A stretch of DNA of 64,000 nt. It comes from an uncultured Chloroflexia bacterium (GTDB taxonomy: Bacteria; Chloroflexota; Anaerolineae; Anaerolineales; UBA4823). This document shows positions 15,711 to 63,384 of this stretch, piece after piece. Location: NCBI GenBank assembly GCA_963809805.1, contig CAWELB010000007.1:458837-522836 (forward strand). The letters are read 5' to 3'. The notes under the pieces were generated by a model, which made no database searches, was not told where the DNA came from, and saw only the letters and a program-made list of their open reading frames with translations. The position numbers were made by a program, and so were the translations under genes. Position 1 is the first letter of the stretch. Every line of letters begins with the position of its first letter.

Positions 15711-15782
15711 TTAACCTATCCATCTGACTAGGAGGAAACCCGACTTATGATAGATGCATTCAGATTGGCATACAGATAGACT

Positions 15783-16193: not shown

Positions 16194-16266
16194 CTCTTCC
16201 ACGAGTTCGCCTTCTCCCCATGATGTATCAAAATATTTGCTCGAAAAAGGGAAAAATTAGATATCT

Positions 16267-17181: not shown

Positions 17182-17227
17182 ACGAGAAGACAGGTTCGTA
17201 ATTTTGTCGAAATTCCTTTACGATATC

Positions 17228-17257
17228 AAAAGGACCTGCCGAGAAGCAGGTCCTTTT
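17228..17257. terminator. bidirectional rho-independent terminator
   Basis: aaa-aggacctgc (17231-17239), loop cgagaa, gcaggtcct (17246-17254), then tttt. An A-tract on one side and a T-tract on the other, between convergent genes. Confidence 0.6.
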
Positions 17258-17289
17258 ATAATCCGCGCAGACATTGGTGCTAAAGAACG

Positions 17290-19444: not shown

Positions 19445-19470
19445 AGTTACTCCTGTCTAAAAATCTGGTA

Positions 19471-20298: not shown

Positions 20299-20335
20299 TT
20301 TTCCTCCTGTTGAACTTGATTAAAAATACGACCTA

Positions 20336-27250: not shown

Positions 27251-27260
27251 CCAATGCTCC

Positions 27261-31553: not shown

Positions 31554-32417
31554 TCAATTCAAATCCGCGGCAATTTTCTTCAATTCCTTAACACTCAAAG
31601 CGACTGCTTCATCCTCCCGCCCGGTCCAATCTGCGTGTGGATGGTCAATCTCGACTGCCAGGAACCCTTTGAAGTCGGCTTTGTGGAGCATTTGGGCTAA
31701 AGCCTGGTTATTGATCAAGCCCATTCCAACGGGTACACCGGCGAAAAAGTGCCAATCGGTGGGTCGGGCGCTCTTATCCGGCATCAAATCTTTGACATGC
31801 GTGGCTAGAGTGTAGGGGGCAAGCTTTTCCATCCCTTTCACCGGGTCATCCAGCAGGCGCAGGAAGTTGCCCGTATCAAAATTCAGGCCAAAGTATTCCG
31901 AATCAACCATCTCGAGCAGCTGCAGGATCTCGGCGCTGGTGAAGTCGATGTGATTCTCAACCGCCATTTTTATACCATGGTCTTTGGCAATCGGCACGGC
32001 TTTTTTGAACATTTTTACCAGGGCTTCAATCTGGGGTCCGTGCGGCTCGTGCCTGAACATCAAGCTGCTCCCCACCACACGCATCACATCCGCCCCAATG
32101 GCGACGGCATTCGGAATGCCTGCCACCATCTCGTCATAAGCAGTCCAATTCTGACCGCGCTCAAGCCCATCCGGGTGACCCCAGGCGTATACACGATCCA
32201 ATTTGTAATCATCCAATTGTGCTTTCAGGTCTTTGAACCAGGTCTGGTCAATATTGGGTGGGAAGAAGCATGATTCAAGCGAAACCCCGTCCACATTCAA
32301 TTCCTTGGCGCGGGTGAGAAAATCCTGCATGCTCATATTTTTCGCAGGGGGTTTCTGGTCAGGATATACCTCACCGAAGAAACGATGAAAACAGTAACTA
32401 TCAATTCCGACTTTCAT
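31554..32417 (-). CDS. sugar phosphate isomerase/epimerase (XI-like TIM barrel) 5
   Basis: Start moved to the ATG at 32417 (MKVGIDSYCF...), which has an AGGAGG SD. AVENH, THVKD and AVEIDH motifs. Confidence 0.8.
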   Translation of the reverse strand: MKVGIDSYCFHRFFGEVYPDQKPPAKNMSMQDFLTRAKELNVDGVSLESCFFPPNIDQTWFKDLKAQLDDYKLDRVYAWGHPDGLERGQNWTAYDEMVAGIPNAVAIGADVMRVVGSSLMFRHEPHGPQIEALVKMFKKAVPIAKDHGIKMAVENHIDFTSAEILQLLEMVDSEYFGLNFDTGNFLRLLDDPVKGMEKLAPYTLATHVKDLMPDKSARPTDWHFFAGVPVGMGLINNQALAQMLHKADFKGFLAVEIDHPHADWTGREDEAVALSVKELKKIAADLN

Positions 32418-32540
32418 TTTGAGCCTCCTGAGATTAGATTGGTGAACCTGTTTATATTTGAGTCCGGGTGATGCTACTTTGCTATTCTTCCACAAGGAAT
32501 AACAACAGCTTTTGTCGATTGTTTAGCAAGAATTAAAAAC

Positions 32541-44220: not shown

Positions 44221-45192
44221 ATGAAAATCGGATTATTCACGGCCACATTTTTGGATATGCAAATTGAAGAAGTCTTCAAGCTGGCCTCGGGTCTGGGCTA
44301 CGAAGCGGTTGAAATGCCCGCATTTGCCAACAACCCGCACCTGGATATCGAAAAGATAGTCAAAGGTAAGAACGCAGCTGCATTGAAAAAGCTGGTTAAA
44401 TCATATGGGCTGATCATCTCCGCCTTGGCTAACCATCCGGAAGGTCAGATCGTGCTCGGACCATATGGGAAAGACACCGATGCGATTTTCAAGGGTTCCA
44501 AGGAAGAGAAGATCAAGTTTGGCACCGAGCGCATGATCAAAACTGCCCAGGCAGCCAACGCCCTTGAGGTCCCCGTGGTGACCGGGTTCATCGGTTGCGA
44601 GAATTTTGGTCGTTTCTTCCCCTGGCCTTATTCGAAAGGCTGGGCGGATATGGAAGTGGAATTCGTTGAGCGCTGGGGCAAAATCCTGGACAAATTTGGC
44701 GAGTATGGCGTCAAATTCGCCCATGAACCGCATCCCAACGAGCTGGTCTACAATGTGGAAACCGCTCTACGTGCCGTTGAGCTGATGGGAGGTCGCAAGG
44801 AGTTCGGTTTCAACTTCGACCCTGCCAACCTGATCTACCTGGGCATCGATGTGGAGAACTTCGTCGACGCCCTGGCAGGGCGTATCTTTCACGTGCATGC
44901 CAAGGATGGTGAAGTGGTCGTCCACAACGTCCGTCGTTCAGGTGTGATTCCGCAAGGTGACTGGCAGCGACTGGGACGCGGTTTCCGCTTCAGGATCCCC
45001 GGCTGGGGTACCGTGCCCTGGAAGAAAGTAATCACCGAGCTTTCGATGATTGGGTACAATTACGTCATGTCGTATGAGCACGAAGACGTCACCATGAGTC
45101 GTCACGACGGAATCACCAAGACGATTGCCTATTTGAAGCCGCTGATGATTGAGAATCCCTATGAAGGTCGGAACGACGTTTTATTTCAATAA
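44221..45192 (+). CDS. sugar phosphate isomerase/epimerase (XI-like TIM barrel) 6
   Basis: AHEPHPN, HVHAKD and SYEHED motifs; 323 aa. Confidence 0.8.
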   Translation: MKIGLFTATFLDMQIEEVFKLASGLGYEAVEMPAFANNPHLDIEKIVKGKNAAALKKLVKSYGLIISALANHPEGQIVLGPYGKDTDAIFKGSKEEKIKFGTERMIKTAQAANALEVPVVTGFIGCENFGRFFPWPYSKGWADMEVEFVERWGKILDKFGEYGVKFAHEPHPNELVYNVETALRAVELMGGRKEFGFNFDPANLIYLGIDVENFVDALAGRIFHVHAKDGEVVVHNVRRSGVIPQGDWQRLGRGFRFRIPGWGTVPWKKVITELSMIGYNYVMSYEHEDVTMSRHDGITKTIAYLKPLMIENPYEGRNDVLFQ

Positions 45193-47029: not shown

Positions 47030-48272
47030 ATGGACAATAAAGAGATCCTGCTTTCACCGATAAAGATTGGCACACGCACCTGTGAAAATCGATTTTTCAG
47101 CCAACCCATGGAGTGCACCGATGCAGATGCAGACGGTAATCCTACCGACCTGACCTATGCGCGCTATGAGAACCTGTTCAAGGGTGAGGCTGGCATGGTC
47201 TGCCTGGAAGCGATCACCATCACCGACAAGAACCGCGGGCGCTTGAACCAGTTATTCATCATGCCCCAAAACTTGCCTGCGTTAACGAAATTTGTCAGAC
47301 GCTTGCGGGAAGTGAACCCCAAGACCATATTCATCTACCAGCTAACCCACTCGGGTGAGCTGAGCAACCCTGAATTTTCAAAACGCCTTGCGGTAAAGCC
47401 ACTGCCCGGCTTTGATGCGGAAGTGTTCACCGAGGATGAGTTTGAAAAGATCATGGACGATTTCGTCCTGGCTGCCAAGATCACCTACGATTCGGGTGCG
47501 GATGGGATCGACATGAAATTCTGCCATGGCTATCTCGGGTCTCAAATCCTCAGGCCCTACAACACCCGCCAGTGGAAGTACGGCGGGAAGTGGGAGAACC
47601 GGCGCCAGTTTGCCTTCGACTTATACGAACGCATTCAGAAAGCTGTACCCGATAAGAACTTCCTGATCGGTTCGAAGATCTCCGTTTGGGAAGGCTTCCC
47701 GGGCGGGTTCGGCACCGCCGGACCAGATACACCGGTGATTGACCTGATCCGAGCCGATTGACCTGGTAAAAGGTCTGGAGGAACGTGGCGCCCAGTATTT
47801 CGTGCAATCTGCAGGCAGCCCCTCAATCACCATCAGCCTCACCCAGGCGGATAAAGACCATCCATATTTCGCCTACCTGCACCAGTACTTTGCCAAAGTA
47901 TTGCGGGAAAACCTCAAGAAGGAAACCGTTGTGATCGGCTCGAACTATTCGGTGTTCGGTAAGGGCAGGAGTAAGCTGGCAGCAGTCAGCCACAAGGATA
48001 GTGCTTTGCTGGCGTATGGTGCCCAGAATATCGCCAAGGGTTACACCGATATGATCGGTCTCGGTCGCCAGTCACTGGCTGACCCGTTGCTCCCACTCAA
48101 GCTGCGTGAAGGCCGCGAGAAGGAAATTCATTACTGCACCACCTGTGATAACTGCCTCGAGCTGCTCATCCGCCAGAGCCCGATTGGTTGCTGCACCTAT
48201 AACAAGTTTTACACCAAGGTGTTGGTCAATACGCGCAAAGAAAAAGGCAGCCTGGTGGAAAAACATACCTAG
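47030..48272 (+). pseudogene. Old-Yellow-Enzyme-like NADH:flavin oxidoreductase, split by a 19-bp insertion
   Basis: ORFs 47030..47761 and 47802..48272 are two halves of one OYE-like TIM barrel (FCHGYLGSQILRPYNTRQWKYGGKWENRRQF ... IGLGRQSLADPLLP). Deleting 47747-47765 fuses them in frame. Confidence 0.7.
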
Positions 48273-51362: not shown

Positions 51363-54300
51363 CTATTTCTGTGGTTTTTCCTTAAGGCTCTCTCCCTGGT
51401 CTCCCATCATCACCTCAACCATGTGTATCTTTCCATCGTTAACCAGCGGAATGGCCTGTGGGTCCAGTATATTTCCATCCAATTTCACCAGCTGGACATT
51501 GTGCGCAATATGCGTGGGATTGGTCACCTTTATTTGATAGCTTGTGGCTCCAAATTGATAAGAAATCTCAAACCCGTCCCAGCTTGGTGGAATGACAGGG
51601 TCGATGTGCAATATATCACCAGTCTTCTTAAAGCCCAGGAGAGCCGTCAGACCAAAGCGGTACATCCACGCTGCCGATCCCGTATACCAGGTCCATCCCC
51701 CGCGATGTGTGTAGGGCGGTTTGCTGTAGATATCGGCACAGATCACGTATGGTTCGACACGATATTCAGCCGCCTTCTCCTCTGTCTCTGAATGGAAGAT
51801 GGGATTAAGCAGATCGAACTGCTCGCCAGCTCGCTTCCCATCTCCCAACTGGGCAAAAGCCCAGGCCGTCCAGATGGCAGCGTGAGTATACTGTCCGCCA
51901 TTCTCGCGTATGCCTTGTAGGTACCCTTTGATATAGCCAGGATCATGCTCAGTTTTGTCAAAAGGCGGTGTGAACAGCAGCATTAACCGCTCCTGCGGGA
52001 GAACCAGCCGTTCCAGCACTGACTCCATCGCCTGCTGGCTGCGAATTGGATCGCCAGCACCACTCAATACCGCCCAAGACTGGGCAATTCCGTCGATCTG
52101 GCATTCAAGCTCCTGGTTCGAGCCGAGGGGGAAGCCATCATCATAATATGCTCGACGGTACCATGCACCATCCCAGGCGGTTTGTTCGACTGCGGCAGCA
52201 TATTCCTTGGATCGCGACCGGTAATATTCAGCTATTTCACCATCTCCCCGCTGGTCACATATCCTTGCGAAGCGCTCAAGGATATCGCATAGGAACCATG
52301 CCAGCCAGACACTTTCCCCTTTTCCTTCTATGCCCACCCGGTTCAGGCCGTCATTCCAATCGCCGGTACCGATCAAAGGCAAGCCGTGCATTCCACTGGT
52401 GGCGCCTTTTTTGATTGCCCGGTGGCAGTGTTCTATCAGGGGATACGCTTCTTTCGTCTGAGGATATTCGTTATAGCGTTCTTTTTCATCCTCATTCAAA
52501 GGCGGCGCCTCAAGGAAAGGAATTTTTTCTTCGAGAATACTCACATCACCGGTAGCTTCCAGGTATAGAGCTGTGACATACGGAAGCCACAGCAGGTCGT
52601 CTGAGATGCGCGTTCGCACACCGCGACCGGAAGGTGGATGCCACCAATGCATCACATCGCCCTCGGTGAATTGGAACTGAGCAGCATTGAGTATCTGGCC
52701 GCGGGAAATGGCCGGATCGATTGCCAGTAATGCCAGCACATCCTGGAGCTGGTCGCGAAAACCAAATGCTCCGCTGGGTTGATAGAAAGCCGATCGACCC
52801 CAGATCCGGCAGGAGAGGCTCTGGTACAGCATCCAATGGTTAAGTATCAAATCGGAGGCTGGTTCGGGAGTGTGCACCTGGATAGTATTGAGTAAATGGT
52901 TCCACAAAGCCCGGGTGCGCTCCAGAGCTGCTCCCACATATGCCGAGTCATGATATTTCTTGGCCAGCTCAAGCGCGTGTCCCTTGTTATTCCCCTGCCC
53001 CAGTACAAAGTAAATCTCTTCTACGCCGCCAGGCAGTAAATCGAGATGTAGCTGCAGCACCGCGCAAAGGTCTTCACTGGGTGAAAGGCGTGTTTCCAGC
53101 CCGATACGATGCAAAGCAGCCGGATACTCGAGTGTGCCGCCCCGCCCCAGAAACTCGGTCCGGTCGGTGGTCAAACCATGCACCGGTTTATTAGCGATGA
53201 GGAAAGCGGTTCTCTCACCAAATTCGTGGTTGTATGGGTTGGTAGCCAGCAGGCAGAACTCAGCCGCATCATACTCTGGAATGATATATGGCAGTGATGC
53301 AGCATGAGTAGTTCCCAACACCCATTCGACGTACTGGGTGGCCGTAATCCGGCGGTTGTGATTCCAGGTGTTTTCAACCCGCAAGTGGATAATTTTAACC
53401 GGGTCCTCCGGGCTGGCGAACAGCGTCAGGCGCTGGCGTAGACCGTGGGAATTATGCTCGAAGATGGTGTAGCCCGCACCATGGGTTACGCGATAGGGTT
53501 GGTCTGCACCGGCAGGCAGAGGCGTGGGTGTCCAAACATCACCGGTTTCTTCATCTCGCAGGTAGAGGGCTTCACCGGTTGGGTCGCGTACCGGGTCGTT
53601 GGACCATGGCGTAAGGCGGTTTTCACCGCTGTTCACTGCCCAGGTGCACTGGCTGCCTGATTCGCTAACCATAAATCCAAAATAGGGATAACCGATCACG
53701 TTGACCCACGGGGCTGGAGTGAGCCTGCCGGGACTCAGCTCAATGATATATTCGTGGCCGTCTGCACTAAAACCGCCATATCCGTTATAGAACTGCAAGG
53801 GTCCTGCTGCAGGGAGTGGATCCTCCTCATTGGGGACGACAGTGCTTTCGGGGGACCTGGTTGGAATAAATTCGGGCAGATGAGCAGCCTGGATGGTATA
53901 CGCAGGTATTTGATCATTCATCGATCCGCGATCACCCTTAAAAAGGATGCATCCCGCGGTTTGCAGCAAAGTGTTTTCTTCGGGAGTAATCTGATCCGCA
54001 TAAAGGATGAAAATCCCCCCGCGCTTGTTCAACCACTGCTCGCTGTTCAAACGGTTTACCAGGCGGTAGAGCATCCCATTCAGCTCAGCGCCGTAATCGG
54101 TCTGTTGATAATTGAGAATGACGATATCCACCATCATACGACGGCTGCGTAAAAATTCATGTACTTGCAAAACCTCGCGGATCAGGTCTATCTGTTTAGA
54201 TTCCCTGATCTCGACCAGCAAGATCGGATAATCACCTGAAATACCAAAACGCCATAATCCTGACTGACCAAGCCGGTTTGAGGCGATCGTTTCAGGTGAA

Positions 54301-57300
54301 GCACGCAATAACTTGAACGGATAGAGTAGTGCTGAGAGAACCTGCAAGGTATTTTTGAATGCCTGAGAATTATAGTTTTGCTTCCCCAGCCAGGTCTGGA
54401 CGGAAATATTTGCTTGATGATAGGAACGCTCAATCAGTGACCAGCTGGAATATCGCCCGGCTAATGCCATAACCGCTTCTCGGCTTTCTCCGGCGAAGGT
54501 CAGATATGCCAGCTCAGCGCTTTCGTGCGGGTTTAGTTTGACTTCCTGGCCAAGTGAAAAGATTGGGTCAAGTGTCGCCCCAGTTGTTCCCGTGAGGTAC
54601 TCCTCAGAATTGAGCGCGGCTGGGTTGTTGAGAGTACCGCCTCGACCCACAAATCGATTGCGATCCGCTTCATGACGTGCCGTTGGCTGGTTATCTTGAG
54701 ATTCCGCTTTATGATCGACCACCAGCATATGACCCAGAAAGATGGGCTTTTCGTCGCTGGAACGGAGTCTCCGAGAGAAAATTTGTAAATTAAGCTCAGG
54801 TACAAATTCGCTCTCGATAAACAGCTTATTGTAAGCTGGGTGGCGCCGGTCTGCAGCCTGTTGTGTGAGGATCACTTCCCCGTAAGAAGTCAGGCGCAGG
54901 TGGCGCACTTGGCTGTCTGTATTGTGCAAATGGATGCGCCGGATCTCCACTGGGTCATCAGGGCACACCGTGATTTCCATGGTGGATGCGATATCATTAT
55001 CTGTGCGGTGGAAAACCGCCATGTGGGCAAAGAAAGTCACCTGCATATTCTCTGCTTGGGTGGGGATGGGCAGATATCCTGTCGACCATAGCTTTCCAGT
55101 GGACGGTTTCCCAAGGTTGGTGAGATTCATGTCCTGGATATAGATCCAGGTCCCCCAAGGGTCGAGCACCCCATCAGCCTGCCAGCGCGTCAGGTCTATA
55201 TCGCGCCAGGTGCTGTACCCACCTCCCATATTGGAAATCAAAACACCATAATTGCCATTTGACAGGAGATTCACCTGTGGGATCGCCGTCTCAACCGGCA
55301 CACTCCAGGGAACTATTTCGATTGGGGCAACTGATGACCGCAGTATTCCTTTTATATCCGTTGCATACGGATTTTGTAGGGGAGCTGCCTGTGGGATCTG
55401 CTCTTGTAAAAGCAGCTCGACACTCTGGATGCGTGGATCAGTGTGCATCCGGCGCACCATTTTGTCTTTATAAAAATAATTTACCAGAGCCATTAAGATC
55501 ATGCCCTGGTGATGGGCCATATACTCACGCACTATAGAAGAAGTTTCACCCACCAGCAATCGGTCTGCGGTGAAATCAATCGACTCATACAGGCCATATA
55601 ATCCGAAGACGTTAAGCTCCATCAGGCTTTCCAGATTTTGGGCAACGGTTTGAGGGTTGTAATTAATGGCCATGAGCGAGGCATAAGGCGCAACTACCAA
55701 ATCGTCTCCCAATCCGCGTTTAAAGCCCAGCCCTGGAACCCCGAATGCGCGATATTGGTAATTTTGATTGGCGTCAAACAGGTAAAAGCCAGATTCGGAG
55801 ATACCCCACGGCACACCTTTAGTCTTTCCATATTCGATTTGATGTAAGACTGCTCCCTGTGCGCTATCTGCCAACAATGTGCCTGGGTAGGAGCGCAGGA
55901 AAAGCGTCGGCATCAGGTATTCAAACATGGTCGCACCCCATGAAAGCAAGACGTACATCCCTTCTACCCGGGTTAACGGCCTGCTTAATTGCATCCAGTG
56001 AGATTGCGGGACATCTCCCTTTGCCAGGGCAATGATGGAAGCGATCCGTGCTTCAGAGGCCAGTAGATCGTAATAATTATTGTCGAGCTGACCCGTGTCA
56101 AGGTTAAAACCAAGGTGGAAAACGCGCCGCTGTGAGGAATAAAGGAACCCAAAATCCATCTCCATCACAAACCGCTCAGCGCGAGCTGCACTTTGAGTGT
56201 ATTCATTCAGCAGGGCATCAGCATTGTCTGCGGCCTGTTTCAAAGCCTGGTCCATTGCATCCAGCCATTCCAACGCTTCATGTTCCTGGCTAGATTCAGA
56301 AACAGATGTAGGTTGAGTTTCCTTTAGAAGATCGCGTAATGCGCCTGTGCTGGTTAAGTCAGCAGTGGCGTAGGTGCGAACCTGACCCAGGCGTGGATTG
56401 TAAGGTAAATTTTCTCTTAATGTGCTCAACCCTGGTAAAAAACGAGACTCATTGAAAAGCACAGGCAACTGCTCTAGCAAGTGAATCCAGGGTACCATTT
56501 CGGTAAGCGTTCGCTGTATGGCCTGATGGTGGCGTTCTACCTGGGCTGCAACTTCTTGTAGCTTGCGTAGGGCTTCCAAATCGAAAGCTGCACTACCCAC
56601 CTCAATCAGCTCAATCAGGCGTTTTGAGAGATCCGGCCAAAATAGTCCATTTACTGTCTGAAAGAGTGCAAACCAACGCGTGGGTTCCATCCGTACAGCC
56701 AGGATTTTTTCCTTCATCTCGGCAATTTTTTGATCGATTTCCTGTACCAGGCTGTTATATTCAGCCTTTCGCATTCCCGACAATATCTCAGTCAGATTGG
56801 AAAGGGTATCCAGGTAACCCTGCCATAGATCCCAACGAAATATCCGTTCTGTTGGCATGTTCTTACATGCCTGGGCAGTTACCACCAGGCTGGCAGCCAG
56901 GTTGCCGCTGTCTACAGTAGAAATGTAGCGTGGCTTGAGCGGCTGTAGGGTCAGCGTATCATACCAATTTAAGAAGTGACCGCGGAAGCGCTCCAGCTGT
57001 TCCAGGGTGTCCATTGTGATGCTCAGGCGGGTCGCCAGCCCGAGTTGATCCAGGTAGCCAAGGTCGTAAGCAGCCAGTGTGGAGGTCAGTAGCAATCCAA
57101 TATTGGTAGGTGAGGTGTGATGAGCGATTATCCCAACGGGTGCTTCCTGGAAGTGATCGGGTGGCAGCCAATGGTCTTCAGGACCAACGAAGCGCTCAAA
57201 GAAGCCCCAGGTACGCCGGGCAACCTGTCGAAACAGGATGGTTTGATCCTTGGTCAACGGTTTCGTACGCTGCTTGATCGGCCGATCGATCCATTGGGCG

Positions 57301-60257
57301 ATTAACGGTGAGAACATCCAAATCAACAGCAAGGGCATGCCGAAGGCTAAGGCGGGTGACAATCCATGTCCTGCAATGCCATAAACCAGCTGGATTCCAC
57401 CGGCCAAAATCATCACGATAAGCGTCGATGCGATCATCCTCAGCCAGGCCGTATTCCGGTAGACCTGTAAGCCAAACAGGCGCGCAGTTTGGGCAGCAGT
57501 AGTCCACTGTAATAGGTTGCGGTGGCTGATGAAAAGGCGGTAGAGCGTGGTCAGGATGGCGTCCAGGGCGTTATACGCCTCGTAGGGTAGGAAAGCTACT
57601 GCTAATGCCCAGCGCACGAAAGACCATCTCATAGGATGAAATGCTGCGCCGAAATTCTCGCCTCCCAGGGTTTGTATAGCACTCCTTGCGAGACCTGTCA
57701 GTACCGCAGTGCCCAACGAAAGCAGGACAATTGCCATCCAGAGCCCGATGAGATCAGGCATGGAAATTGTGCCAAAAAAGAAGATAAACAGTAGGGAAGG
57801 AGCAAGCATTGCCCGCAGCAGGTTATCAATCATTTTCCAACGATCAATACCTGTGAATTTAATCCGGAATTTCCCTGGATGTAGCAGCCAGGGAAGGAGC
57901 TGCCAGTCTCCGCGGTTCCAGCGCTGTTGGCGTTTGACCTGCACGATATAGTTCGATGGGTAATCCTCGACCATGGTGATATCAGTGACCAGACCGGCGC
58001 GGCCCAAGATTCCTTCCAATAGATCGTGGCTGAGCACAGTGTTCTCGGGAATATGTCTGTCCACGCTGCGTTCGAAGGTGTCTACCTCGTAAATTCCTTT
58101 GCCAACGTAGCTTCCCTCACCGAACAGGTCTTGGTAAGCATCGGAGACTGCCCGTGTATACAAATCCAGCCCGGTATCTCCAGCAAAAATTCGGGTAAAC
58201 CACGAATAATTAGCGCTTCTGGGATGAATCTCCATGCGGGGCTGTAATATGGTGTAGCCGGAATATACATGGCCGGTCGTGTCATTGAACCTGGCGTGGT
58301 TCAATGGATGGGCCAGTGTACCAACCAGGCGCCTGGCTGCACCGCGTGGTAGGATGGTGTCTGCATCCAGGGTGATTACGTATCGCACACATTGTAATTC
58401 TGCACTGCCCGCTCTCTCTCCAGTGACGGTTGAAAACGATGTGTCCATACTGCCCCGCAGCAGCTTGTTCAATTCATGCAGTTTGCCGCGTTTACGTTCC
58501 CATCCCATCCACCTGCCTTCAGATTGGTTCCATAAACGTTTGCGGTGGAGCAAATAAAACAATTTATCACCTTCGACGATGGGTGGTTGCATTCGTTCAT
58601 CAGATTCAAGGCTCCCGGCCTCCACCAGCTGAGAAACGCTGCTGTCAGTGGTCGTGTCACAGTCAGGGATCGAACGGCTGTATTTGGCGTTCAATTTCTC
58701 GATCTCTGCTGTGGCGTACTGTATCATTTCTTCATCTTCGGGTAATGTTTCGCTGTCAGCATCAGCGAAATCTGTCAGTAAAGCAAAAAGCAGACCCCGG
58801 TCTGTATTGCGCAGATAAGTCATTTCGATCTGGCGCGTCAGGCTGTCAATCTCTCTTTGATTGGTGATTAAGGCAGGGATGACTACCAGCGTACGGAACG
58901 GGGCTGGAATCCCATCTATGAAATTCAGCTTGGGAAGGATGCGCGGTTTTTTCCTCAATGTGATCAACCAATTGACCAGGCTGCCGGAGACCGTCAAAAT
59001 GGGAGCCAACAATGCAATCGCCAGCACGAGCATCGAGATCCACTGATATGGCGATCCTGACTGAAATATCTCCCGCAGATCGCTTACAAGTGAGATAAGC
59101 CCTAGGATTAGTAAGCTAAGGAAAAAGATGCTTCCAAGGTATAAGGCACTGACATGCCCCAACCCCCACCGTTTGAGGGTTGTTTTCACATCCGGATGAT
59201 AGCCAATCTTCACTTCCAATAAAGACCGGCTTTTCCCAAATAAATATTCGCCTACGTGTGGAACCGGATCCTCGAGAGCACTTTCAAGTCCAGCTGTGCC
59301 CGGAGCCATTCCAGCCGATTTGGTTTCACCTGTGGCCCTTTCTTGGGCCAGTTCGACTGTAATTTTTGCCAGCTCATTTTCTTCTTGCCCGCTTGCAAAC
59401 GAGAGCAATTCGATCTCTTTTCGGTATAGATCGCGGGTTTTAAAATCCATCAATGGATATATTCCAGCCGGGTCTTGGCGCAGCGTCCGTTCCAGGCTGC
59501 TTACTGCCTCAAAAAAGTCGTTCCAGTTTTGTTCAGTGATGGTACGTAAGCTGATGATGATATTAGCCACGATGCCACTGGCTAACGTGTCAACCGTCGC
59601 AGTTTGATCTTTTATAAATGGATTGCCAGTCTCTACAAGCTGTGGTGGGAAGATAGGTAAGTTCGGTGAAGTTTGAGGATGGATTAACCATTCGAGTGTG
59701 TGTGCCAGGGTCTCTATCAGGCAGTAGCGCAGGAAAATTGGCAGCGCCCATAATTCACCCATTGTCAGAGGCACTTGTTCCTGGACCAGGATCAGGATGG
59801 CTTGAAGGTCCATCACATTCAACAAATAATTCTGGAAGAAAAGCATGCCCCGCCCAATTGCATAAATGCGTGGTAGGCCTTTCAATGCTCCTCCTGCCAG
59901 TTTAGGCAGCTGTTTATTAAATCCAGCGGGCAAATCTTCACCGATTTGCCGGAGGGCTTGCCGGATGATGTAGTAATTGTCCAGCACCCATTCTGAGGCA
60001 AGAGTAAGCGTCAGGTCCTTAGTCGAAGCCTCCCGGAAGTAGGCATGTGCCTTTTCCAGCCAGTCTTCAAACACCTTGAGCTCGCTCCCCCCGATAATGG
60101 TCCTCTTCCCCCACTCCTTGGGAAACCGGCTAATTTCCTGATAATTACTTACCAGAAAATCGACCAGCGCCTGCATTTGTTCAGTTTTTGACAAAGATGA
60201 ATTTCCCGAGACAGGAAAGCCCTGTTCATGGATTATATTTTCGTGATCTTCCGGCAT
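51363..60257 (-). CDS. cgs: cyclic beta-1,2-glucan synthase-like giant protein (N-terminal membrane GT domain + C-terminal GH94 glucan phosphorylase domain)
   Basis: 2964-aa single ORF. N-terminal WVLDNYYIIRQALRQI. TM clusters flank a GT2/GT84-like domain (ITLDADTILP = DxD; RQQRWNRGDWQ = QxxRW). The C-terminal third carries GH94-type motifs (GTGDWNDGLN, WTWYTGSAAWMY). Confidence 0.85.
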   Translation of the reverse strand: MPEDHENIIHEQGFPVSGNSSLSKTEQMQALVDFLVSNYQEISRFPKEWGKRTIIGGSELKVFEDWLEKAHAYFREASTKDLTLTLASEWVLDNYYIIRQALRQIGEDLPAGFNKQLPKLAGGALKGLPRIYAIGRGMLFFQNYLLNVMDLQAILILVQEQVPLTMGELWALPIFLRYCLIETLAHTLEWLIHPQTSPNLPIFPPQLVETGNPFIKDQTATVDTLASGIVANIIISLRTITEQNWNDFFEAVSSLERTLRQDPAGIYPLMDFKTRDLYRKEIELLSFASGQEENELAKITVELAQERATGETKSAGMAPGTAGLESALEDPVPHVGEYLFGKSRSLLEVKIGYHPDVKTTLKRWGLGHVSALYLGSIFFLSLLILGLISLVSDLREIFQSGSPYQWISMLVLAIALLAPILTVSGSLVNWLITLRKKPRILPKLNFIDGIPAPFRTLVVIPALITNQREIDSLTRQIEMTYLRNTDRGLLFALLTDFADADSETLPEDEEMIQYATAEIEKLNAKYSRSIPDCDTTTDSSVSQLVEAGSLESDERMQPPIVEGDKLFYLLHRKRLWNQSEGRWMGWERKRGKLHELNKLLRGSMDTSFSTVTGERAGSAELQCVRYVITLDADTILPRGAARRLVGTLAHPLNHARFNDTTGHVYSGYTILQPRMEIHPRSANYSWFTRIFAGDTGLDLYTRAVSDAYQDLFGEGSYVGKGIYEVDTFERSVDRHIPENTVLSHDLLEGILGRAGLVTDITMVEDYPSNYIVQVKRQQRWNRGDWQLLPWLLHPGKFRIKFTGIDRWKMIDNLLRAMLAPSLLFIFFFGTISMPDLIGLWMAIVLLSLGTAVLTGLARSAIQTLGGENFGAAFHPMRWSFVRWALAVAFLPYEAYNALDAILTTLYRLFISHRNLLQWTTAAQTARLFGLQVYRNTAWLRMIASTLIVMILAGGIQLVYGIAGHGLSPALAFGMPLLLIWMFSPLIAQWIDRPIKQRTKPLTKDQTILFRQVARRTWGFFERFVGPEDHWLPPDHFQEAPVGIIAHHTSPTNIGLLLTSTLAAYDLGYLDQLGLATRLSITMDTLEQLERFRGHFLNWYDTLTLQPLKPRYISTVDSGNLAASLVVTAQACKNMPTERIFRWDLWQGYLDTLSNLTEILSGMRKAEYNSLVQEIDQKIAEMKEKILAVRMEPTRWFALFQTVNGLFWPDLSKRLIELIEVGSAAFDLEALRKLQEVAAQVERHHQAIQRTLTEMVPWIHLLEQLPVLFNESRFLPGLSTLRENLPYNPRLGQVRTYATADLTSTGALRDLLKETQPTSVSESSQEHEALEWLDAMDQALKQAADNADALLNEYTQSAARAERFVMEMDFGFLYSSQRRVFHLGFNLDTGQLDNNYYDLLASEARIASIIALAKGDVPQSHWMQLSRPLTRVEGMYVLLSWGATMFEYLMPTLFLRSYPGTLLADSAQGAVLHQIEYGKTKGVPWGISESGFYLFDANQNYQYRAFGVPGLGFKRGLGDDLVVAPYASLMAINYNPQTVAQNLESLMELNVFGLYGLYESIDFTADRLLVGETSSIVREYMAHHQGMILMALVNYFYKDKMVRRMHTDPRIQSVELLLQEQIPQAAPLQNPYATDIKGILRSSVAPIEIVPWSVPVETAIPQVNLLSNGNYGVLISNMGGGYSTWRDIDLTRWQADGVLDPWGTWIYIQDMNLTNLGKPSTGKLWSTGYLPIPTQAENMQVTFFAHMAVFHRTDNDIASTMEITVCPDDPVEIRRIHLHNTDSQVRHLRLTSYGEVILTQQAADRRHPAYNKLFIESEFVPELNLQIFSRRLRSSDEKPIFLGHMLVVDHKAESQDNQPTARHEADRNRFVGRGGTLNNPAALNSEEYLTGTTGATLDPIFSLGQEVKLNPHESAELAYLTFAGESREAVMALAGRYSSWSLIERSYHQANISVQTWLGKQNYNSQAFKNTLQVLSALLYPFKLLRASPETIASNRLGQSGLWRFGISGDYPILLVEIRESKQIDLIREVLQVHEFLRSRRMMVDIVILNYQQTDYGAELNGMLYRLVNRLNSEQWLNKRGGIFILYADQITPEENTLLQTAGCILFKGDRGSMNDQIPAYTIQAAHLPEFIPTRSPESTVVPNEEDPLPAAGPLQFYNGYGGFSADGHEYIIELSPGRLTPAPWVNVIGYPYFGFMVSESGSQCTWAVNSGENRLTPWSNDPVRDPTGEALYLRDEETGDVWTPTPLPAGADQPYRVTHGAGYTIFEHNSHGLRQRLTLFASPEDPVKIIHLRVENTWNHNRRITATQYVEWVLGTTHAASLPYIIPEYDAAEFCLLATNPYNHEFGERTAFLIANKPVHGLTTDRTEFLGRGGTLEYPAALHRIGLETRLSPSEDLCAVLQLHLDLLPGGVEEIYFVLGQGNNKGHALELAKKYHDSAYVGAALERTRALWNHLLNTIQVHTPEPASDLILNHWMLYQSLSCRIWGRSAFYQPSGAFGFRDQLQDVLALLAIDPAISRGQILNAAQFQFTEGDVMHWWHPPSGRGVRTRISDDLLWLPYVTALYLEATGDVSILEEKIPFLEAPPLNEDEKERYNEYPQTKEAYPLIEHCHRAIKKGATSGMHGLPLIGTGDWNDGLNRVGIEGKGESVWLAWFLCDILERFARICDQRGDGEIAEYYRSRSKEYAAAVEQTAWDGAWYRRAYYDDGFPLGSNQELECQIDGIAQSWAVLSGAGDPIRSQQAMESVLERLVLPQERLMLLFTPPFDKTEHDPGYIKGYLQGIRENGGQYTHAAIWTAWAFAQLGDGKRAGEQFDLLNPIFHSETEEKAAEYRVEPYVICADIYSKPPYTHRGGWTWYTGSAAWMYRFGLTALLGFKKTGDILHIDPVIPPSWDGFEISYQFGATSYQIKVTNPTHIAHNVQLVKLDGNILDPQAIPLVNDGKIHMVEVMMGDQGESLKEKPQK

Positions 60258-60259
60258 GC

Positions 60260-61285
60260 TTAGCGTCTCCCGGATTTTTCTGCCGCAACCTCCGCCGCGC
60301 TTGGTCTCACTTGAGAACGCGGTACATCCTGAATGACCAGGAGGGGTTTGGTGCCATGCTCAATGTAATTCCATGTAACGGTTCCGTAAGGCCAGGTGAC
60401 CTGCCCGGAATAACCATGCGCGCAAAGGATTACCAGATCGATAGCTTCCTGCTCTGCTAATTCATGGAGTGCGGAAGGTACACTGCCACTCTCCACCACA
60501 CAGGTATCACAATCTACCGGCAAACGCTCTTTCATTTCATAAAGGTATCGTTCAACAGCCTGGTGGCTGAGTCGTAATAGTTTTTCTGTAAGTTGGCTAA
60601 TTTCGATCGGGTAGGGTTCCGGTATAGGCAATTCGGGTGGTCGAATCACTGCCGCTAGGAAGAGTGTCGATTTGTTGCCCGCCGCTTCCGGTGTGCTATC
60701 GGTAGGCATTTCACCTCGCGTCAGCTCAATCCCGGCAGAGAGGGAACACTCGGCGCGACGTGAGCTGTCAATCGGTAGTAGAATTCGGCGATATCGTTTG
60801 ATGGTTTCATCGATGATGGTTTGGTCGTAGGCGCGCACGAGCAGGACCGGCAGATAAATTAAGTTGATCACTTTTTGAGTGACACTGCTGATATTCCAAC
60901 GACTCAATCCGCTCGAGCCATGTGTACTGATGACGAGAAGGTCGATATTCTCGGTATGTGCAAAGTCGACGATATTTTCCGCAGCTTTTCCTTCGCGGAC
61001 GGAATAATCGACACGGCTCTTTTCTCCTTCACCCAGCACGAGATTTTCCCCTAGATTTTCTCTGACTCTGTCCGCGATGCTTTGCATATATGCATCAGCC
61101 TCAGCCTTGTGAAGTTGCCAGCGTAGTGGATCAACAGCAGCAGGGTTTTCGTGATAAGAAATAGGCTCAAGAACCCGTAATAAATGGATGCTAGCTCCAA
61201 AGATTCGAGCGAACAGCTCAGCATGAGGAATCGTTACTTCAGCGAGCGGTGAGCCATCCAATGGCACCAGGATTCGGGTAAACAT
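60260..61285 (-). CDS. universal stress protein, tandem UspA domains
   Basis: Start moved to the ATG at 61285 (MFTRILVPLDGSPLAE) with an AGGAGTG SD. A second Usp repeat (RRILLPIDSS...VILCAHGYSG). Its stop is 2 nt from the cgs-like start codon. Confidence 0.8.
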   Translation of the reverse strand: MFTRILVPLDGSPLAEVTIPHAELFARIFGASIHLLRVLEPISYHENPAAVDPLRWQLHKAEADAYMQSIADRVRENLGENLVLGEGEKSRVDYSVREGKAAENIVDFAHTENIDLLVISTHGSSGLSRWNISSVTQKVINLIYLPVLLVRAYDQTIIDETIKRYRRILLPIDSSRRAECSLSAGIELTRGEMPTDSTPEAAGNKSTLFLAAVIRPPELPIPEPYPIEISQLTEKLLRLSHQAVERYLYEMKERLPVDCDTCVVESGSVPSALHELAEQEAIDLVILCAHGYSGQVTWPYGTVTWNYIEHGTKPLLVIQDVPRSQVRPSAAEVAAEKSGRR

Positions 61286-61744
61286 GAGATCACTCCTTCC
61301 TGTCAAGAAAACTTAAAAAGGGAGCCGTAATTGTTCGATGATTGCTCCCTGATGCGCACGAATGAGCATCGTTTGAGCTCGCCTAACATCGGTAATAGGC
61401 TGCAGCGCCATAAAGAAAATCACCTGAACAAAACTTGTGACGGGGTTAGCTGTATGAACCCAAAAATCGGTGACCGGGCTGGAAGGTAAAACAACGATTT
61501 TGGTAGCGCCGCTATAACCCCGAGAGTTTCTCCCCAGAAGGCCCAAGATTCCCTGTGTTCGCCATCTGACTGGACCAAAGCCGACGTGATCAGCGAAGAG
61601 AGATAAATTATTCCGACCAACCCCCATTGTATCAGCAATGCCGCCATCAGCGCCGCGTGGATTGAAAATCCGACCTGGCAGCCTGGCTGGGGAACAAACC
61701 CGGTGCTCAAGCTACCTTGAGAACGCGGGTGAGAAACGAGTCGG

Positions 61745-61905: not shown

Positions 61906-63384
61906 TCATCCTACGTGGAGCTCCACCACCTGGCGGAAGTGGAAGCCCATGATCGCCAGAGTGATGGCTAATGGGAACAGGCGGGGGTGGTGGAATAGCG
62001 TCCAGAAAAACAGCTTCCAATACTGGACGCGCTCAACCCCGCGGATGCCTAATTGGTAAATCGAGCGACCAAAAGCCAGGATGTACTGTAAATTCAGCTG
62101 AAACTGGATCTGAGGCGGATGGTACTCACGCAGGAAGGTTACAACCCGCTCGTAATATGCCTTGGGGGCATAAATTTGCGCCAGGAGCTTGCGATACCCC
62201 TCCCGCAGGGGTTCGAGCCCCATCCTGGGGATGATATTGGTCGAGCCATCCACGTTATCGCCAGACATATCATTGGTCAAGCGACCTTCTCTTTGCAAGC
62301 GCTCATACAACTTTGTCCCGGGAGGGGCTTGCAGCAAGCCAACCATGGCGGTTACAATTCCGCTCTTTTGGATAAAATCGATCTGCTGTTGGAAGATGGA
62401 TGGAGGATCGTTGTCAAAGCCGACAATGAAGCCTCCTTGCACCTGAAGACCGGCGCGTTGCAGCTGCTTGACGCTTTCAACCAAATCGCGGCCTTTGTTT
62501 TGATTCTTGCTGCATTCGGTCAGGCTGCCTTCGTTGGGCGTCTCGATGCCGACGAACACCATGTTGAACCCGGCCTGCGTCATCAGGCTGAGCAGCTCGG
62601 GGTCGTCAACCAGGTTGATGGAGACCTCTGTGTTGAAGGGCACACCGGACTTACCTTTGCGCCATTCGATCAAGGCTGGCAGGATTTCAGACTTGATCTG
62701 CTTTTTGTTGCCGATGAAGTTATCATCCACGAAGAAGATGCTGCTGCGCCAGCCCAAGGCGTACAGGCTATCCAGCTCTGCGATGATCTGCGCAGCGGTC
62801 TTGGTGCGCGGGCGATGCCCGAGCAGGGCGGTCACATTGCAAAAGTCACAGCTGTAAGGGCAGCCGCGTGAGAACTGGATACTGAAGGTGTCGTAGTGCT
62901 TGAAATTGACCAGCTGCCAAAGTGGCGCAGGGGTTTGGCGGATATCAGCGTACTCGGTAGTGGAATACACCCGTTGGGCGGTGCCGTTAGCCAGATCTGT
63001 CAGGAATAATGGCAGGGTGAGCTCAGCTTCGTTGAGCACGAAATGGTCAACATCGGGGAACTGGTCATGTTCCATGGTGAAGAGCGGCCCACCTGCCACC
63101 ACTTTCTTGCCAGCTTCCTTGCAGCGGGCGATCGCAGCATGGGCGGCATCCCGCTGAACGATCATGGCGCTGATGAAGACGTAATCCGCCCATGCCAGGT
63201 CTTTGGGTGTCAGGCTGGTCGCATTGAGGTCCACCAGCCGCTTTTCCCACTCCGCAGGCAGCAGGGCTGCTACGGTTAACAAACCCAAGGGGGGAGAACC
63301 GGCTTTTTTACGGATGAAGCGCAGGGCGTGCTTGAAACTCCAGAAGGTGTCGGGGAACTCGGGGTAAACCAGTAAGATTCGCAT
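61906..63384 (-). CDS. B12-binding-domain radical SAM protein (DUF4070-type C-terminus)
   Basis: N-terminal cobalamin-binding-like Rossmann region (RILLVYPEFPDTFW...), the radical SAM cluster motif FSRGCPYSCDFCNV (CxxxCxxC), and a ~120-aa C-terminal extension. Confidence 0.85.
   Translation of the reverse strand: MRILLVYPEFPDTFWSFKHALRFIRKKAGSPPLGLLTVAALLPAEWEKRLVDLNATSLTPKDLAWADYVFISAMIVQRDAAHAAIARCKEAGKKVVAGGPLFTMEHDQFPDVDHFVLNEAELTLPLFLTDLANGTAQRVYSTTEYADIRQTPAPLWQLVNFKHYDTFSIQFSRGCPYSCDFCNVTALLGHRPRTKTAAQIIAELDSLYALGWRSSIFFVDDNFIGNKKQIKSEILPALIEWRKGKSGVPFNTEVSINLVDDPELLSLMTQAGFNMVFVGIETPNEGSLTECSKNQNKGRDLVESVKQLQRAGLQVQGGFIVGFDNDPPSIFQQQIDFIQKSGIVTAMVGLLQAPPGTKLYERLQREGRLTNDMSGDNVDGSTNIIPRMGLEPLREGYRKLLAQIYAPKAYYERVVTFLREYHPPQIQFQLNLQYILAFGRSIYQLGIRGVERVQYWKLFFWTLFHHPRLFPLAITLAIMGFHFRQVVELHVG

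What the first reader, a model, noticed from the sequence alone, without database searches (positions are those of the whole stretch)
51363..60257. Giant 2964-aa cyclic beta-1,2-glucan synthase-like gene in a non-proteobacterial-looking context
**What the ORF contains.** A single uninterrupted 8.9-kb ORF combines:
- a Cgs/NdvB-type N-terminal region (WVLDNYYIIRQALRQI);
- a membrane-embedded GT domain (DxD ITLDADT; QRWNRGDWQ);
- a long middle region;
- a GH94 phosphorylase-like C-terminal domain (GDWNDGLN; WYTGSAAWMY).

**Why it stands out.** This is the domain order of the Agrobacterium ChvB, Sinorhizobium NdvB and Brucella Cgs enzymes, which make periplasmic cyclic glucans used in host interaction and osmoadaptation. 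Here the genome context (sugar TIM-barrel clusters, ROK regulators, strong SD usage) looks like a free-living saccharolytic, possibly monoderm or Chloroflexota-like organism. That assignment is low confidence. The gene is also translationally adjacent to a tandem Usp gene.

The product, its cellular location and the role of a cyclic glucan in such an organism would be new biology.
Basis: partly seen in the sequence, partly recalled or inferred. Interest (0 to 1): 0.6.

Follow-up and report, generated by a model that had tools for sequence, protein, structure and literature searches.

The report
Cyclic glucan synthase gene in Anaerolineae

Summary
[quoted passage not shown] It has the same domain order: N-terminal domain, GT84, six transmembrane helices, GH189 cyclase, GH94 phosphorylase. 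All 18 residues shown experimentally to matter are present, including the priming tyrosine, the GT aspartates and RW motif, the cyclase nucleophile and acid/base, and the GH94 catalytic acid.

The host guess is also right. Flanking genes and the closest homologues (up to 89% identity) come from Anaerolineae MAGs. Cultured Longilinea arvoryzae carries an orthologue at 65%. Proteobacterial enzymes are only 36-42% identical, which rules out recent transfer or contamination.

The "new biology" claim is overstated:
- More than 120 full-length relatives at 62% identity or above exist, many already labelled "cyclic beta-1,2-glucan synthetase" by JGI.
- The cyclase domain of a Firmicute enzyme (Thermoanaerobacter italicus) has been characterised.

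The one new point is context. A tandem-Usp gene sits 2 nt upstream of cgs in every Anaerolineae-clade locus that has upstream sequence (34 genome loci plus 5 metagenome contigs). The ChvA/NdvA exporter gene that neighbours cgs in Rhizobiales is absent nearby. Product, location and role remain untested.

Verdict: new member of a known kind, interest 0.35.

The parts
51363..60257 (-). [quoted passage not shown]
   Evidence: Single ORF. Full-length match to A. tumefaciens Cgs 8RF0/8RF9, 1810 bits. 89% identical to an Anaerolineae-clade MAG protein.
57297..60257 (-). Residues 1-987: N-terminal scaffold domain, GT84 glycosyltransferase and six transmembrane helices (374-392, 410-428, 813-831, 836-854, 941-959, 969-987). 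Key residues: D496, R588, D631/D633, priming Tyr700, D745, R779-W780, R782.
   Evidence: Alignment to 8RF0 residues 82-1246. Residue mapping to At D527, R586, D624/D626, Y694, D739, R773/W774 and R776, described in PMC10901819. Hydropathy scan. These residues are invariant in 43 homologues; D496 is 42 of 43.
55386..57266 (-). Residues about 998-1624: cyclisation (CY) domain, GH189. Key residues: S1113/D1116, acid/base E1402, E1446, nucleophile E1488, H1582/H1583.
   Evidence: Match to the T. italicus CGS cyclisation domain 8WY1, 411 bits, over query 998-1156 and 1324-1624. Residue mapping to TiCGS E1356, E1400, E1442 and H1536/H1537 (PMC10834661). Pfam PF10091 at 1394-1604. Invariant in 43 of 43 homologues.
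51366..55385 (-). Residues about 1625-2964: GH94-type phosphorylase (GP) half. Key residues: D2502 (At D2393), catalytic acid D2636 in GDWND (At D2528), and the GGQYTH motif at 2787-2792.
   Evidence: Pfam GH94 supersandwich x2 and GH94 catalytic domain. 525-bit alignment of residues 2404-2912 to 8RF9, identical at these motifs. Cellobiose and chitobiose phosphorylase structures match at E 1e-82 to 1e-55.
60260..61306 (-). Tandem universal-stress-protein (Usp) gene, translationally coupled to cgs. The likely start is the ATG at 61285, giving 341 aa.
   Evidence: Pfam Usp x2, E 9e-38. The junction reads TAA-GC-ATG with GGGAGA upstream. A database protein, P0121, is 100% identical and 341 aa long. 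An orthologue lies directly upstream of cgs in 34 genome loci and in L077-L081.

Best explanation
[quoted passage not shown] It was inherited within that lineage and is expressed as a two-gene operon behind a tandem universal stress protein.

**Inferred mechanism, by homology with the A. tumefaciens, B. abortus and T. italicus enzymes:**
1. The protein sits in the cytoplasmic membrane on six helices, with all catalytic domains facing the cytoplasm.
2. The GT84 domain (D496, D631/D633, D745, R779-W780) uses UDP-glucose, first to glucosylate Tyr700 on the IF1-homology loop and then to extend a beta-1,2 chain.
3. The C-terminal GH94 domain (catalytic acid D2636) trims the chain by phosphorolysis and so sets its length.
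4. The GH189 domain (nucleophile E1488, acid/base E1402) releases a ring by intramolecular transglycosylation. A primer stays on the tyrosine.

**What is shown:** the architecture, the conservation of every residue that was tested experimentally in the characterised enzymes, the taxonomic placement, and the conserved Usp-cgs coupling.

**What is inferred:**
- That the product is a cyclic beta-1,2-glucan of about DP 17-25.
- That Usp gates synthesis in response to stress or nucleotide status, by analogy with Usp TeaD in the osmoregulated TeaABC operon.
- That the glucan serves osmotic or stress adaptation.

Where the glucan ends up is unknown. No ChvA/NdvA-type exporter gene lies near cgs, and Chloroflexota are regarded as lacking an outer membrane.
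For: **Enzyme identity**
- Full-length alignment to solved Cgs: 1810 bits in 4 stretches covering query residues 80-2912.
- 411-bit match to the GH189 founding structure 8WY1.
- All 18 functionally tested or catalytic residues are present and invariant across 43 homologues from at least 7 phyla; D496 is conserved in 42 of 43.
- Six hydrophobic helices lie at positions homologous to the six-helix TM domain of At Cgs (PMC10901819).

**Lineage**
- 584 tblastn-confirmed relatives were found in GTDB species genomes. The best are Anaerolineae MAGs at 89%, and cultured Longilinea arvoryzae KOME-1 is at 65%.
- An NJ tree places the window inside a deep Anaerolineaceae clade with 62-91% identity among genera.
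- Flanking genes are 75-96% identical to those of Anaerolineae MAG locus L028.
- GC content is uniform across the window.

**Usp coupling**
- A Usp orthologue ends 2-6 nt before cgs in 34 loci, spanning 45-90% Cgs identity. It is absent from the proteobacterial, Firmicute, Planctomycetota and second-Chloroflexota-clade loci.
- The same arrangement occurs in the independent metagenome contigs L077-L081.
- No other neighbouring gene is shared by more than 9 of 31 loci.

**Exporter**
- A 609-aa ChvA-like gene lies within 2 kb of cgs in 5 of 5 Rhizobiales loci. The window and the Anaerolineae loci give only ATPase-domain-level hits.
Against: - No biochemical evidence exists for any Chloroflexota Cgs, so ring formation, ring size and even activity are extrapolated from enzymes that are 36-40% identical.
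- The Pfam GT2-type hit is just under its cutoff (25.4 vs 27 bits). The GT84 call therefore rests on the alignment to 8RF0.
- The Usp partner departs from the canonical ATP-binding motif G-x2-G-x9-G-(S/T). Domain 1 reads S-x2-G-x9-S-S and domain 2 reads C-x2-G-x9-G-T, so nucleotide sensing is uncertain.
- Co-transcription and any physical or regulatory link between Usp and Cgs are inferred from gene order alone.
- An exporter could be encoded elsewhere in the genome. Only 20-kb neighbourhoods were examined.
Confidence: 0.8

Rival explanations
1. The gene was recently acquired from Proteobacteria, or sits on a mis-binned or contaminant contig, so the 'non-proteobacterial context' is an artefact.
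For: Cgs is best known from Alpha-, Beta- and Gammaproteobacteria. Mislabelled records do exist: a 79%-identical protein is labelled 'Zixibacteria' (P0015), and a Stenotrophomonas-like copy sits in a 'Bacillus subtilis' assembly (L075).
Against: - Identity to proteobacterial enzymes is only 36-42%. The gene nests in a clade of about 30 Anaerolineae loci that diverge down to 62%.
- In L028 the genes on the downstream flank (RNase II onwards) are 75-96% identical to the window's.
- GC content of the gene equals that of the window.
- Cultured Longilinea arvoryzae carries the same Usp-cgs pair (L034).
Confidence: 0.02
2. The enzyme is active, but its glucan stays in the cytoplasm or wall zone as a stress-induced compatible solute or carbon reserve. 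It would not be an exported periplasmic osmoprotectant or host-interaction factor, because the host is monoderm and has no dedicated ChvA/NdvA exporter.
For: - In At Cgs all catalytic domains are cytoplasmic and the TM domain forms no export channel (PMC10901819).
- No ChvA-like gene occurs in the window or within 10 kb of cgs in the Anaerolineae loci, whereas Rhizobiales have one within 2 kb.
- The conserved partner is a stress protein, not a transporter.
Against: - Whole genomes were not searched for exporters, and generic ABC exporters could substitute. L018 has a 38%-identical partial match 1 kb downstream of cgs.
- Some Chloroflexota have multilayered envelopes that could retain glucans (PMC13319060 abstract).
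- There are no localisation data.
Confidence: 0.3
3. The protein acts mainly in catabolism or remodelling. Its GH94 and GH189 domains would process imported beta-1,2-gluco-oligosaccharides in a saccharolytic organism, with the GT84 part vestigial.
For: The window is rich in sugar-catabolic genes and a sugar ABC importer. Stand-alone GH94 1,2-beta-oligoglucan phosphorylases are catabolic (PMC11842490).
Against: - Every GT84 catalytic residue and the priming tyrosine are invariant across the clade, which argues for selection on synthesis.
- The sugar genes are not conserved neighbours of cgs.
- The architecture is identical to that of proven synthases.
Confidence: 0.05

Closest known systems
[quoted passage not shown]
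   Same: - Same length class (2964 aa here; the deposited 8RF0/8RF9 chains are 2818 and 2799 aa).
- Same domain order: NTD, GT84, six TM helices, CY, GH94 with two supersandwich regions.
- Alignable over residues 80-2912.
- All residues mutated or assigned in that work are conserved: D527, R586, D624/D626, Y694, D739, R773, R776, S1101/D1104, E1300, D2393, D2528.
   Different: - About 36-37% identity to Rhizobiales enzymes.
- Small clade-specific indels: insertions at residues 43-54, 531-544 and 960-966, and about 51 residues missing after residue 191 in the NTD.
- No adjacent chvA/ndvA exporter gene.
- A translationally coupled tandem Usp gene lies upstream, which proteobacterial loci lack.
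- The host is a free-living Anaerolineae, presumed monoderm, with no known host association.
Thermoanaerobacter italicus CGS, whose cyclisation domain TiCGSCy founded family GH189 (8WY1; PMC10834661)
   Same: - 411-bit match over the CY domain.
- Nucleophile E1442, acid/base E1356, E1400 and H1536/H1537 are all conserved, as E1488, E1402, E1446 and H1582/H1583.
- It is also a non-proteobacterial, monoderm host, so it sets a precedent for Cgs outside diderm Proteobacteria.
   Different: - Only the isolated cyclisation domain of TiCGS was studied.
- It belongs to a different phylum (Firmicutes). Firmicute homologues are 38-39% identical to the window protein and have no Usp gene upstream.
GH94 1,2-beta-oligoglucan phosphorylases, and cellobiose and chitobiose phosphorylases (e.g. 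3QDE, 1V7V)
   Same: The C-terminal roughly 800 residues match at E 1e-82 to 1e-55. They carry the GDWND catalytic acid and the GGQYTH motif.
   Different: Those are soluble, stand-alone catabolic enzymes. Here the domain is the length-control and scaffold module of a membrane synthase.
Usp regulators encoded inside osmoadaptation operons, e.g. TeaD of the Halomonas elongata TeaABC ectoine transporter (3HGM), and ATP-binding MJ0577 (1MJH)
   Same: The upstream gene's first Usp domain matches MJ0577 (E 2e-7) and TeaD (E 3e-7). As with TeaD, it is co-located with a system linked to osmotic adaptation. The biological role of TeaD is stated from my own knowledge; it was not checked in a paper here.
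   Different: - It is a tandem two-domain Usp of 341 aa.
- The glycine-rich ATP motif is only partly retained.
- Its partner is a glycan synthase, not a transporter.
- No functional link has been shown.

Membership tests
[quoted passage not shown] | Single polypeptide with the order NTD - GT84 - CY - GH94, alignable along its whole length with a characterised Cgs | tested here: met
   phmmer against 8RF0/8RF9: 1810 bits, with stretches covering query 80-185, 224-527, 562-1256 and 1345-2912.
[quoted passage not shown] | GT84 active site: UDP-coordinating Asp residues, catalytic base Asp, and the RW motif (At D527, D624/D626, D739, R773-W774) | tested here: met
   D496, D631/D633, D745 and R779-W780 are present, together with R588 and R782. 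They are invariant in 42-43 of 43 homologues. The Pfam Glyco_trans_2_3 hit alone is just under its cutoff.
[quoted passage not shown] | Autoglucosylated priming tyrosine on the IF1-homology loop (At Y694) | tested here: met
   Y700 in GLDLYTRA aligns with Y694 in GIDPYVFT and is a Tyr in 43 of 43 homologues. Glucosylation itself was not tested.
[quoted passage not shown] | Compact six-helix transmembrane anchor (2 + 4 helices flanking the GT domain) | tested here: met
   A Kyte-Doolittle scan finds six segments: 374-392, 410-428, 813-831, 836-854, 941-959 and 969-987. They fall in regions aligned to the At Cgs TM regions.
GH189 (beta-1,2-glucanotransferase / cyclisation domain) | Retaining catalytic pair (TiCGS nucleophile E1442, acid/base E1356) with supporting E1400 and H1536/H1537 | tested here: met
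   E1488, E1402, E1446 and H1582/H1583 were mapped through the 8WY1 alignment. All are invariant in 43 of 43 homologues.
GH94 phosphorylase domain | Catalytic acid Asp in GDWND (At D2528), a second active-site Asp (At D2393) and the conserved GGQYTH motif | tested here: met
   D2636, D2502 and GGQYTH at 2787-2792 are identical to 8RF9 in the alignment. Pfam PF17167 E 6e-109 and PF06165 E 7e-146.
[quoted passage not shown] | Produces cyclic beta-1,2-glucan from UDP-glucose | not testable with these tools
   This needs biochemistry: membrane or proteoliposome assays, MALDI-TOF and NMR.
chvA/chvB (ndvA/ndvB, cgt/cgs) synthase-exporter gene pair | ABC exporter ChvA/NdvA/Cgt encoded next to, or in the same genome as, cgs | tested here: not met
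   A 609-aa ChvA-like gene lies within 2 kb of cgs in 5 of 5 Rhizobiales loci. The window (64 kb) and the Anaerolineae loci (+/-10 kb) give only nucleotide-binding-domain-level hits of 26-31% over about 200 aa, plus one partial 38% hit in L018. Presence elsewhere in the genome was not testable.

The most novel reading that the evidence does not exclude
In Anaerolineae, which are presumed to lack an outer membrane, the conserved and translationally coupled Usp-Cgs pair is a stress-gated module. The tandem Usp would bind the giant synthase directly and switch it on or off. [quoted passage not shown] It would be kept in the cytoplasm, or in the wall or sheath of the filament, as an osmoprotectant or desiccation protectant. 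That would be a physiological role and a mode of regulation not described for any Cgs.
Probability: 0.25. Interest if true: 0.55.

Novelty: new member of a known kind. Interest (0 to 1): 0.35.

Why it matters
Cyclic beta-1,2-glucans have been studied almost only as periplasmic osmoprotectants and host-interaction factors of Proteobacteria such as Agrobacterium, Sinorhizobium and Brucella. This window shows that a fully intact synthase is a stable, vertically inherited feature of Anaerolineaceae. These are abundant filamentous fermenters of sediments, soils and anaerobic digesters that have no known host and probably no outer membrane.

If the enzyme is active, two things follow. These glucans have a role independent of a periplasm and of host interaction. 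And their low but widespread occurrence in nature may come partly from Chloroflexota.

The invariant Usp partner gives a concrete, testable handle on how synthesis is regulated. The cultured strain Longilinea arvoryzae KOME-1, which carries the same pair, makes the experiment feasible.

The gene itself is not a discovery. Homologues are numerous and are already auto-annotated correctly.

Tried and rejected
- **Source contig.** An exact look-up of the Cgs protein and of the 100%-identical Usp (P0121) found nothing on record. The cluster look-up gave no names, only that P0121 lies on a 546-kb NCBI/ENA contig. The source organism therefore remains unnamed.
- **RNA features.** There are no tRNA genes or Rfam matches in the window to help with taxonomy.
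- **NCBIfam.** It gave only a meaningless 19-bit MdoH hit, so no curated NCBIfam model covers this protein.
- **Promoters and terminators.** Consensus matches were at or below the shuffle expectation, so transcription-unit boundaries could not be supported that way.
- **Other conserved neighbours of cgs.** The first clustering was swamped by shadow ORFs inside cgs. After masking, no gene family occurred in more than 9 of 31 loci. The RNase II, B12-radical-SAM, DAGK/PAP2 and aldo-keto reductase genes recur only in subsets, so I rejected them as parts of the system.
- **Exporter and modification genes.** I found no cgm-like succinyltransferase, OpgC or phosphoglycerol transferase in the window by Pfam.
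- **Literature.** No paper combines '2-glucan synth*' with 'Anaeroline*' or with 'universal stress protein'. Of the 12 papers holding '2-glucan' and 'Chloroflex*', I opened two, and neither discusses Cgs in Chloroflexota.
- **Recent HGT or contamination.** Considered and rejected; see the rival explanations.
- **Structure prediction.** Not run. The protein exceeds the 1200-aa limit and already matches solved structures strongly.
Full report

Yes. Window 51363-60257 (minus strand) is one uninterrupted ORF of 2964 codons plus a stop, starting with ATG.

Pfam recognises three parts of the protein:
- two GH94 supersandwich regions (E 7e-146);
- the GH94 catalytic domain, residues 2452-2875 (E 6e-109);
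- the 'Glycoamylase' fold PF10091, residues 1394-1604 (E 2e-23).

The GT2-type hit at 626-846 is just under its threshold (25.4 vs 27 bits). NCBIfam has no model that fits. GC content of the gene matches the rest of the window.

**2. What is it?**

[quoted passage not shown] They score 1810 bits in four collinear stretches covering query residues 80-2912. The next best is the crystal structure of the Thermoanaerobacter italicus CGS cyclisation domain (8WY1, 411 bits). GH94 cellobiose and chitobiose phosphorylases follow, matching the C-terminal third.

I took residue numbers from the two structural papers (PMC10901819; PMC10834661) and mapped them through the printed alignments.

| Domain | Residue(s) in characterised enzyme | Residue(s) in window protein |
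|---|---|---|
| GT84 | At D527 | D496 |
| GT84 | At R586 | R588 |
| GT84 | At D624/D626 | D631/D633 |
| GT84 | At D739 | D745 |
| GT84 | At R773-W774 | R779-W780 |
| GT84 | At R776 | R782 |
| GT84, IF1-homology loop | At Y694 (autoglucosylated primer tyrosine) | Y700 |
| Cyclase | At S1101/D1104 | S1113/D1116 |
| Cyclase | Ti E1356 = At E1300 (acid/base) | E1402 |
| Cyclase | Ti E1400 | E1446 |
| Cyclase | Ti E1442 (nucleophile) | E1488 |
| Cyclase | Ti H1536/H1537 | H1582/H1583 |
| GH94 | At D2393 | D2502 |
| GH94 | At D2528 (catalytic acid, GDWND) | D2636 |

The GH94 GGQYTH motif is also present. A hydropathy scan finds six transmembrane segments, two before and four after the GT domain. This matches the six-helix anchor of the Agrobacterium enzyme.

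I aligned 43 full-length homologues from Chloroflexota, Proteobacteria, Firmicutes, Planctomycetota, Myxococcota, Bdellovibrionota and Desulfovibrio. Seventeen of these 18 positions are invariant, and D496 is conserved in 42 of 43.

[quoted passage not shown] It is not a linear-glucan synthase or a phosphorylase fusion lacking the cyclase.

**3. Whose gene is it?**

The window has no tRNA or rRNA genes, so placement rests on protein relatives and synteny.
- The protein search returned more than 120 full-length proteins at 62-89% identity. Nearly all named ones come from Anaerolineaceae, Anaerolineae or 'Chloroflexi' MAGs (two carry other labels, 'Zixibacteria' and Veillonellaceae), and many carry the JGI name 'cyclic beta-1,2-glucan synthetase'.
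- The scan of one genome per GTDB species confirmed 584 relatives by tblastn. The top ones are Anaerolineae-type MAGs at 89%, 87% and 85%.
- Pelolinea, Leptolinea, Ornatilinea, Anaerolinea and the cultured type strain Longilinea arvoryzae KOME-1 lie at 62-68%.
- Stenotrophomonas, Janthinobacterium, Neorhizobium and Desulfovibrio lie at 37-42%.
- A neighbour-joining tree places the window deep inside a large Anaerolineaceae clade.
- The genes flanking cgs in the window (RNase II, aldo-keto reductase, old yellow enzyme, glyoxalase, zinc alcohol dehydrogenase, TIM-barrel and FGGY kinase genes) are 75-96% identical and collinear with Anaerolineae MAG contig L028.

Recent transfer from Proteobacteria, or contamination, can be dismissed.

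It holds seven xylose-isomerase-like TIM-barrel genes, a ROK regulator, a GntR/UTRA regulator, a sugar ABC importer, GFO/IDH/MocA oxidoreductases and FGGY kinases.

**4. Context: what is and is not conserved**

*The Usp partner.* The ORF immediately upstream (60260-61306, minus strand) is a tandem universal stress protein (Pfam Usp x2, E 9e-38).
- Its TAA stop is followed by 'GC' and then the cgs ATG. A GGGAGA motif lies 8 nt before that ATG.
- tblastn finds an orthologue of this Usp ending just upstream of cgs, mostly 2 nt before it, in 34 of the 76 genome loci.
- Those 34 include every Anaerolineae-clade locus that has upstream sequence, the divergent members L023, L032 and L040 (45-48% Cgs identity), and one Myxococcota locus (L076).
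- No hit, even at E 1e-2, occurs in the proteobacterial, Firmicute or Planctomycetota loci, or in a second, Usp-less Chloroflexota clade (L037, L039, L061).
- A search with the Usp itself returned 2649 homologues. The best 120 are all at least 71% identical, and nearly all are 341-342 aa long. Many sit on contigs whose lengths match those of the Cgs hits, and one pair has adjacent locus tags (A2Z27_05160 and A2Z27_05165).
- All five independent metagenome contigs I inspected show Usp followed by Cgs with the same 2-nt gap.

*Other neighbours.* After masking usp and cgs, no other gene family is shared by more than 9 of 31 loci. The conserved unit is this two-gene pair.

*The exporter.* Rhizobiales loci carry a 609-aa ChvA/NdvA-like ABC exporter within 2 kb of cgs (5 of 5 loci). 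Neither the 64-kb window nor the Anaerolineae neighbourhoods contain one. No glucan-modification genes were seen either.

*Nucleotide binding by Usp.* The first Usp domain resembles ATP-binding MJ0577 and TeaD. The canonical G-x2-G-x9-G-(S/T) motif is only partly kept: domain 1 reads S-x2-G-x9-S-S and domain 2 reads C-x2-G-x9-G-T. Both variants are conserved across orthologues. Nucleotide binding is plausible for domain 2 and doubtful for domain 1.

**5. How it most likely works**

By homology (PMC10901819, PMC10834661), the steps are these:
1. The membrane-anchored enzyme glucosylates Tyr700 from UDP-glucose.
2. The GT84 site extends a beta-1,2 chain in the cytoplasm.
3. The GH94 domain trims the chain by phosphorolysis.
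4. The GH189 domain forms a glycosyl-enzyme on E1488 and closes the ring by intramolecular attack, with E1402 as acid/base.

These steps are inferred. What is shown is that every residue they need is present and under purifying selection across the clade.

Translational coupling to Usp suggests that synthesis is tied to a stress or energy signal. This rests on gene order alone.

The fate of the product is open for three reasons. The Agrobacterium enzyme has no export channel. No ChvA-type gene is nearby. [quoted passage not shown] The glucan may therefore be retained in the cell, held in the multilayered envelope, or exported by an unlinked transporter.

**6. Comparison with what is known, and novelty**

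The protein passes every testable membership criterion for Cgs (GT84 + GH189 + GH94). It fails only the criterion of an adjacent exporter, which describes the proteobacterial locus, not the enzyme.

Non-proteobacterial Cgs homologues are not new in themselves:
- the GH189 family was founded on the enzyme of a Firmicute;
- CAZy GT84 already lists about 1930 intact CGSs, according to PMC12102758;
- IMG labels the Anaerolineae proteins correctly.

In the held library I found no paper that discusses Cgs in Anaerolineae, or a Usp-Cgs pairing. The lineage-wide Usp coupling and the lack of a linked exporter are therefore modest new observations.

I rate the finding a new member of a known kind, with interest 0.35. 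The most novel reading still open is a Usp-gated, non-periplasmic cyclic glucan system in monoderm filaments. I give it a probability of about 0.25.

**7. Limits**

- No biochemistry was possible.
- Whole genomes could not be scanned for exporters or outer-membrane genes.
- The tree is a distance tree without bootstrap support.
- Several long-read MAG loci carry frameshifts in cgs, probably assembly errors.

Noticed in passing
window 47030-48272 (+): An old-yellow-enzyme (Oxidored_FMN) gene is split into two ORFs, 47030-47761 and 47802-48272. Compared with the intact 415-aa frame in syntenic locus L028, the window has one extra base near 47747. This is either a frameshifted pseudogene or a sequencing error.
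   Followed up: partly
L015 and L016 (contigs CAWHGE010000011.1 and CAWHGE010000017.1, the same MAG MFD00709.bin.2.174): One MAG carries two complete Usp-cgs modules, with Cgs 80% and 85% identical to the window. This is either a duplication of the whole module or two strains binned together.
   Followed up: no
L037, L039, L061: A second, distinct Chloroflexota Cgs clade (about 42% identity to the window) has no Usp gene upstream. It also lacks essentially all of the roughly 90 residues corresponding to window residues 1256-1345. That stretch lies in the helical insertion of the cyclase domain, which forms the dimer contact in the Agrobacterium structure.
   Followed up: partly
L076 (Myxococcota MAG JBBDXF010000017.1), about 8931-9812 and 9749-18340: A Myxococcota genome has a tandem Usp (31% identical) directly upstream of a Cgs that branches next to the Anaerolineae clade. 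This suggests the two genes can move together as a module.
   Followed up: no
window 61906-63384 (-); L081 4539-6017; L016 6857-8332; L014 931-2406; L010 19851-21323: A B12-binding radical SAM protein with DUF4070 recurs within a few kb of Usp-cgs in several Anaerolineae loci, at 78-88% identity where measured (L010, L014, L016), but at varying positions and orientations. In L077-L081, a DAGK_cat lipid kinase plus a PAP2 phosphatase lie just upstream of Usp instead. No link to the glucan system is established.
   Followed up: partly
P0015/P0184 (contig of 12743 bp, 'candidate division Zixibacteria bacterium RBG_16_50_21') and L075 ('Bacillus subtilis' contig JAHREJ010000006.1): These public labels are probably wrong. 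The 'Zixibacteria' Usp-Cgs pair is 79-81% identical to the Anaerolineae proteins. The 'B. subtilis' Cgs has the same 2903-aa length as the Stenotrophomonas copies and the same identity to the window protein (41%). Both point to mis-binning or contamination.
   Followed up: no
window 18482-21208, 26402-27331, 31554-32495, 44221-45192: The window is unusually dense in xylose-isomerase-like TIM-barrel (AP_endonuc_2) genes: seven copies. They are interleaved with a CUT2-type sugar ABC importer, ROK and GntR/UTRA regulators, GFO/IDH/MocA oxidoreductases and two FGGY kinases. These look like catabolic clusters for rare sugars or inositol-like compounds and are unrelated to cgs.
   Followed up: no
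window 61313-61627 (-): A 104-aa ORF with no Pfam match lies directly upstream of usp. It is weakly conserved (44-55% over 51-77 aa) at the same position in only the four closest loci: L001, L013, L015 and L021. It could be a small lineage-specific first gene of the operon, or not a gene at all.
   Followed up: no
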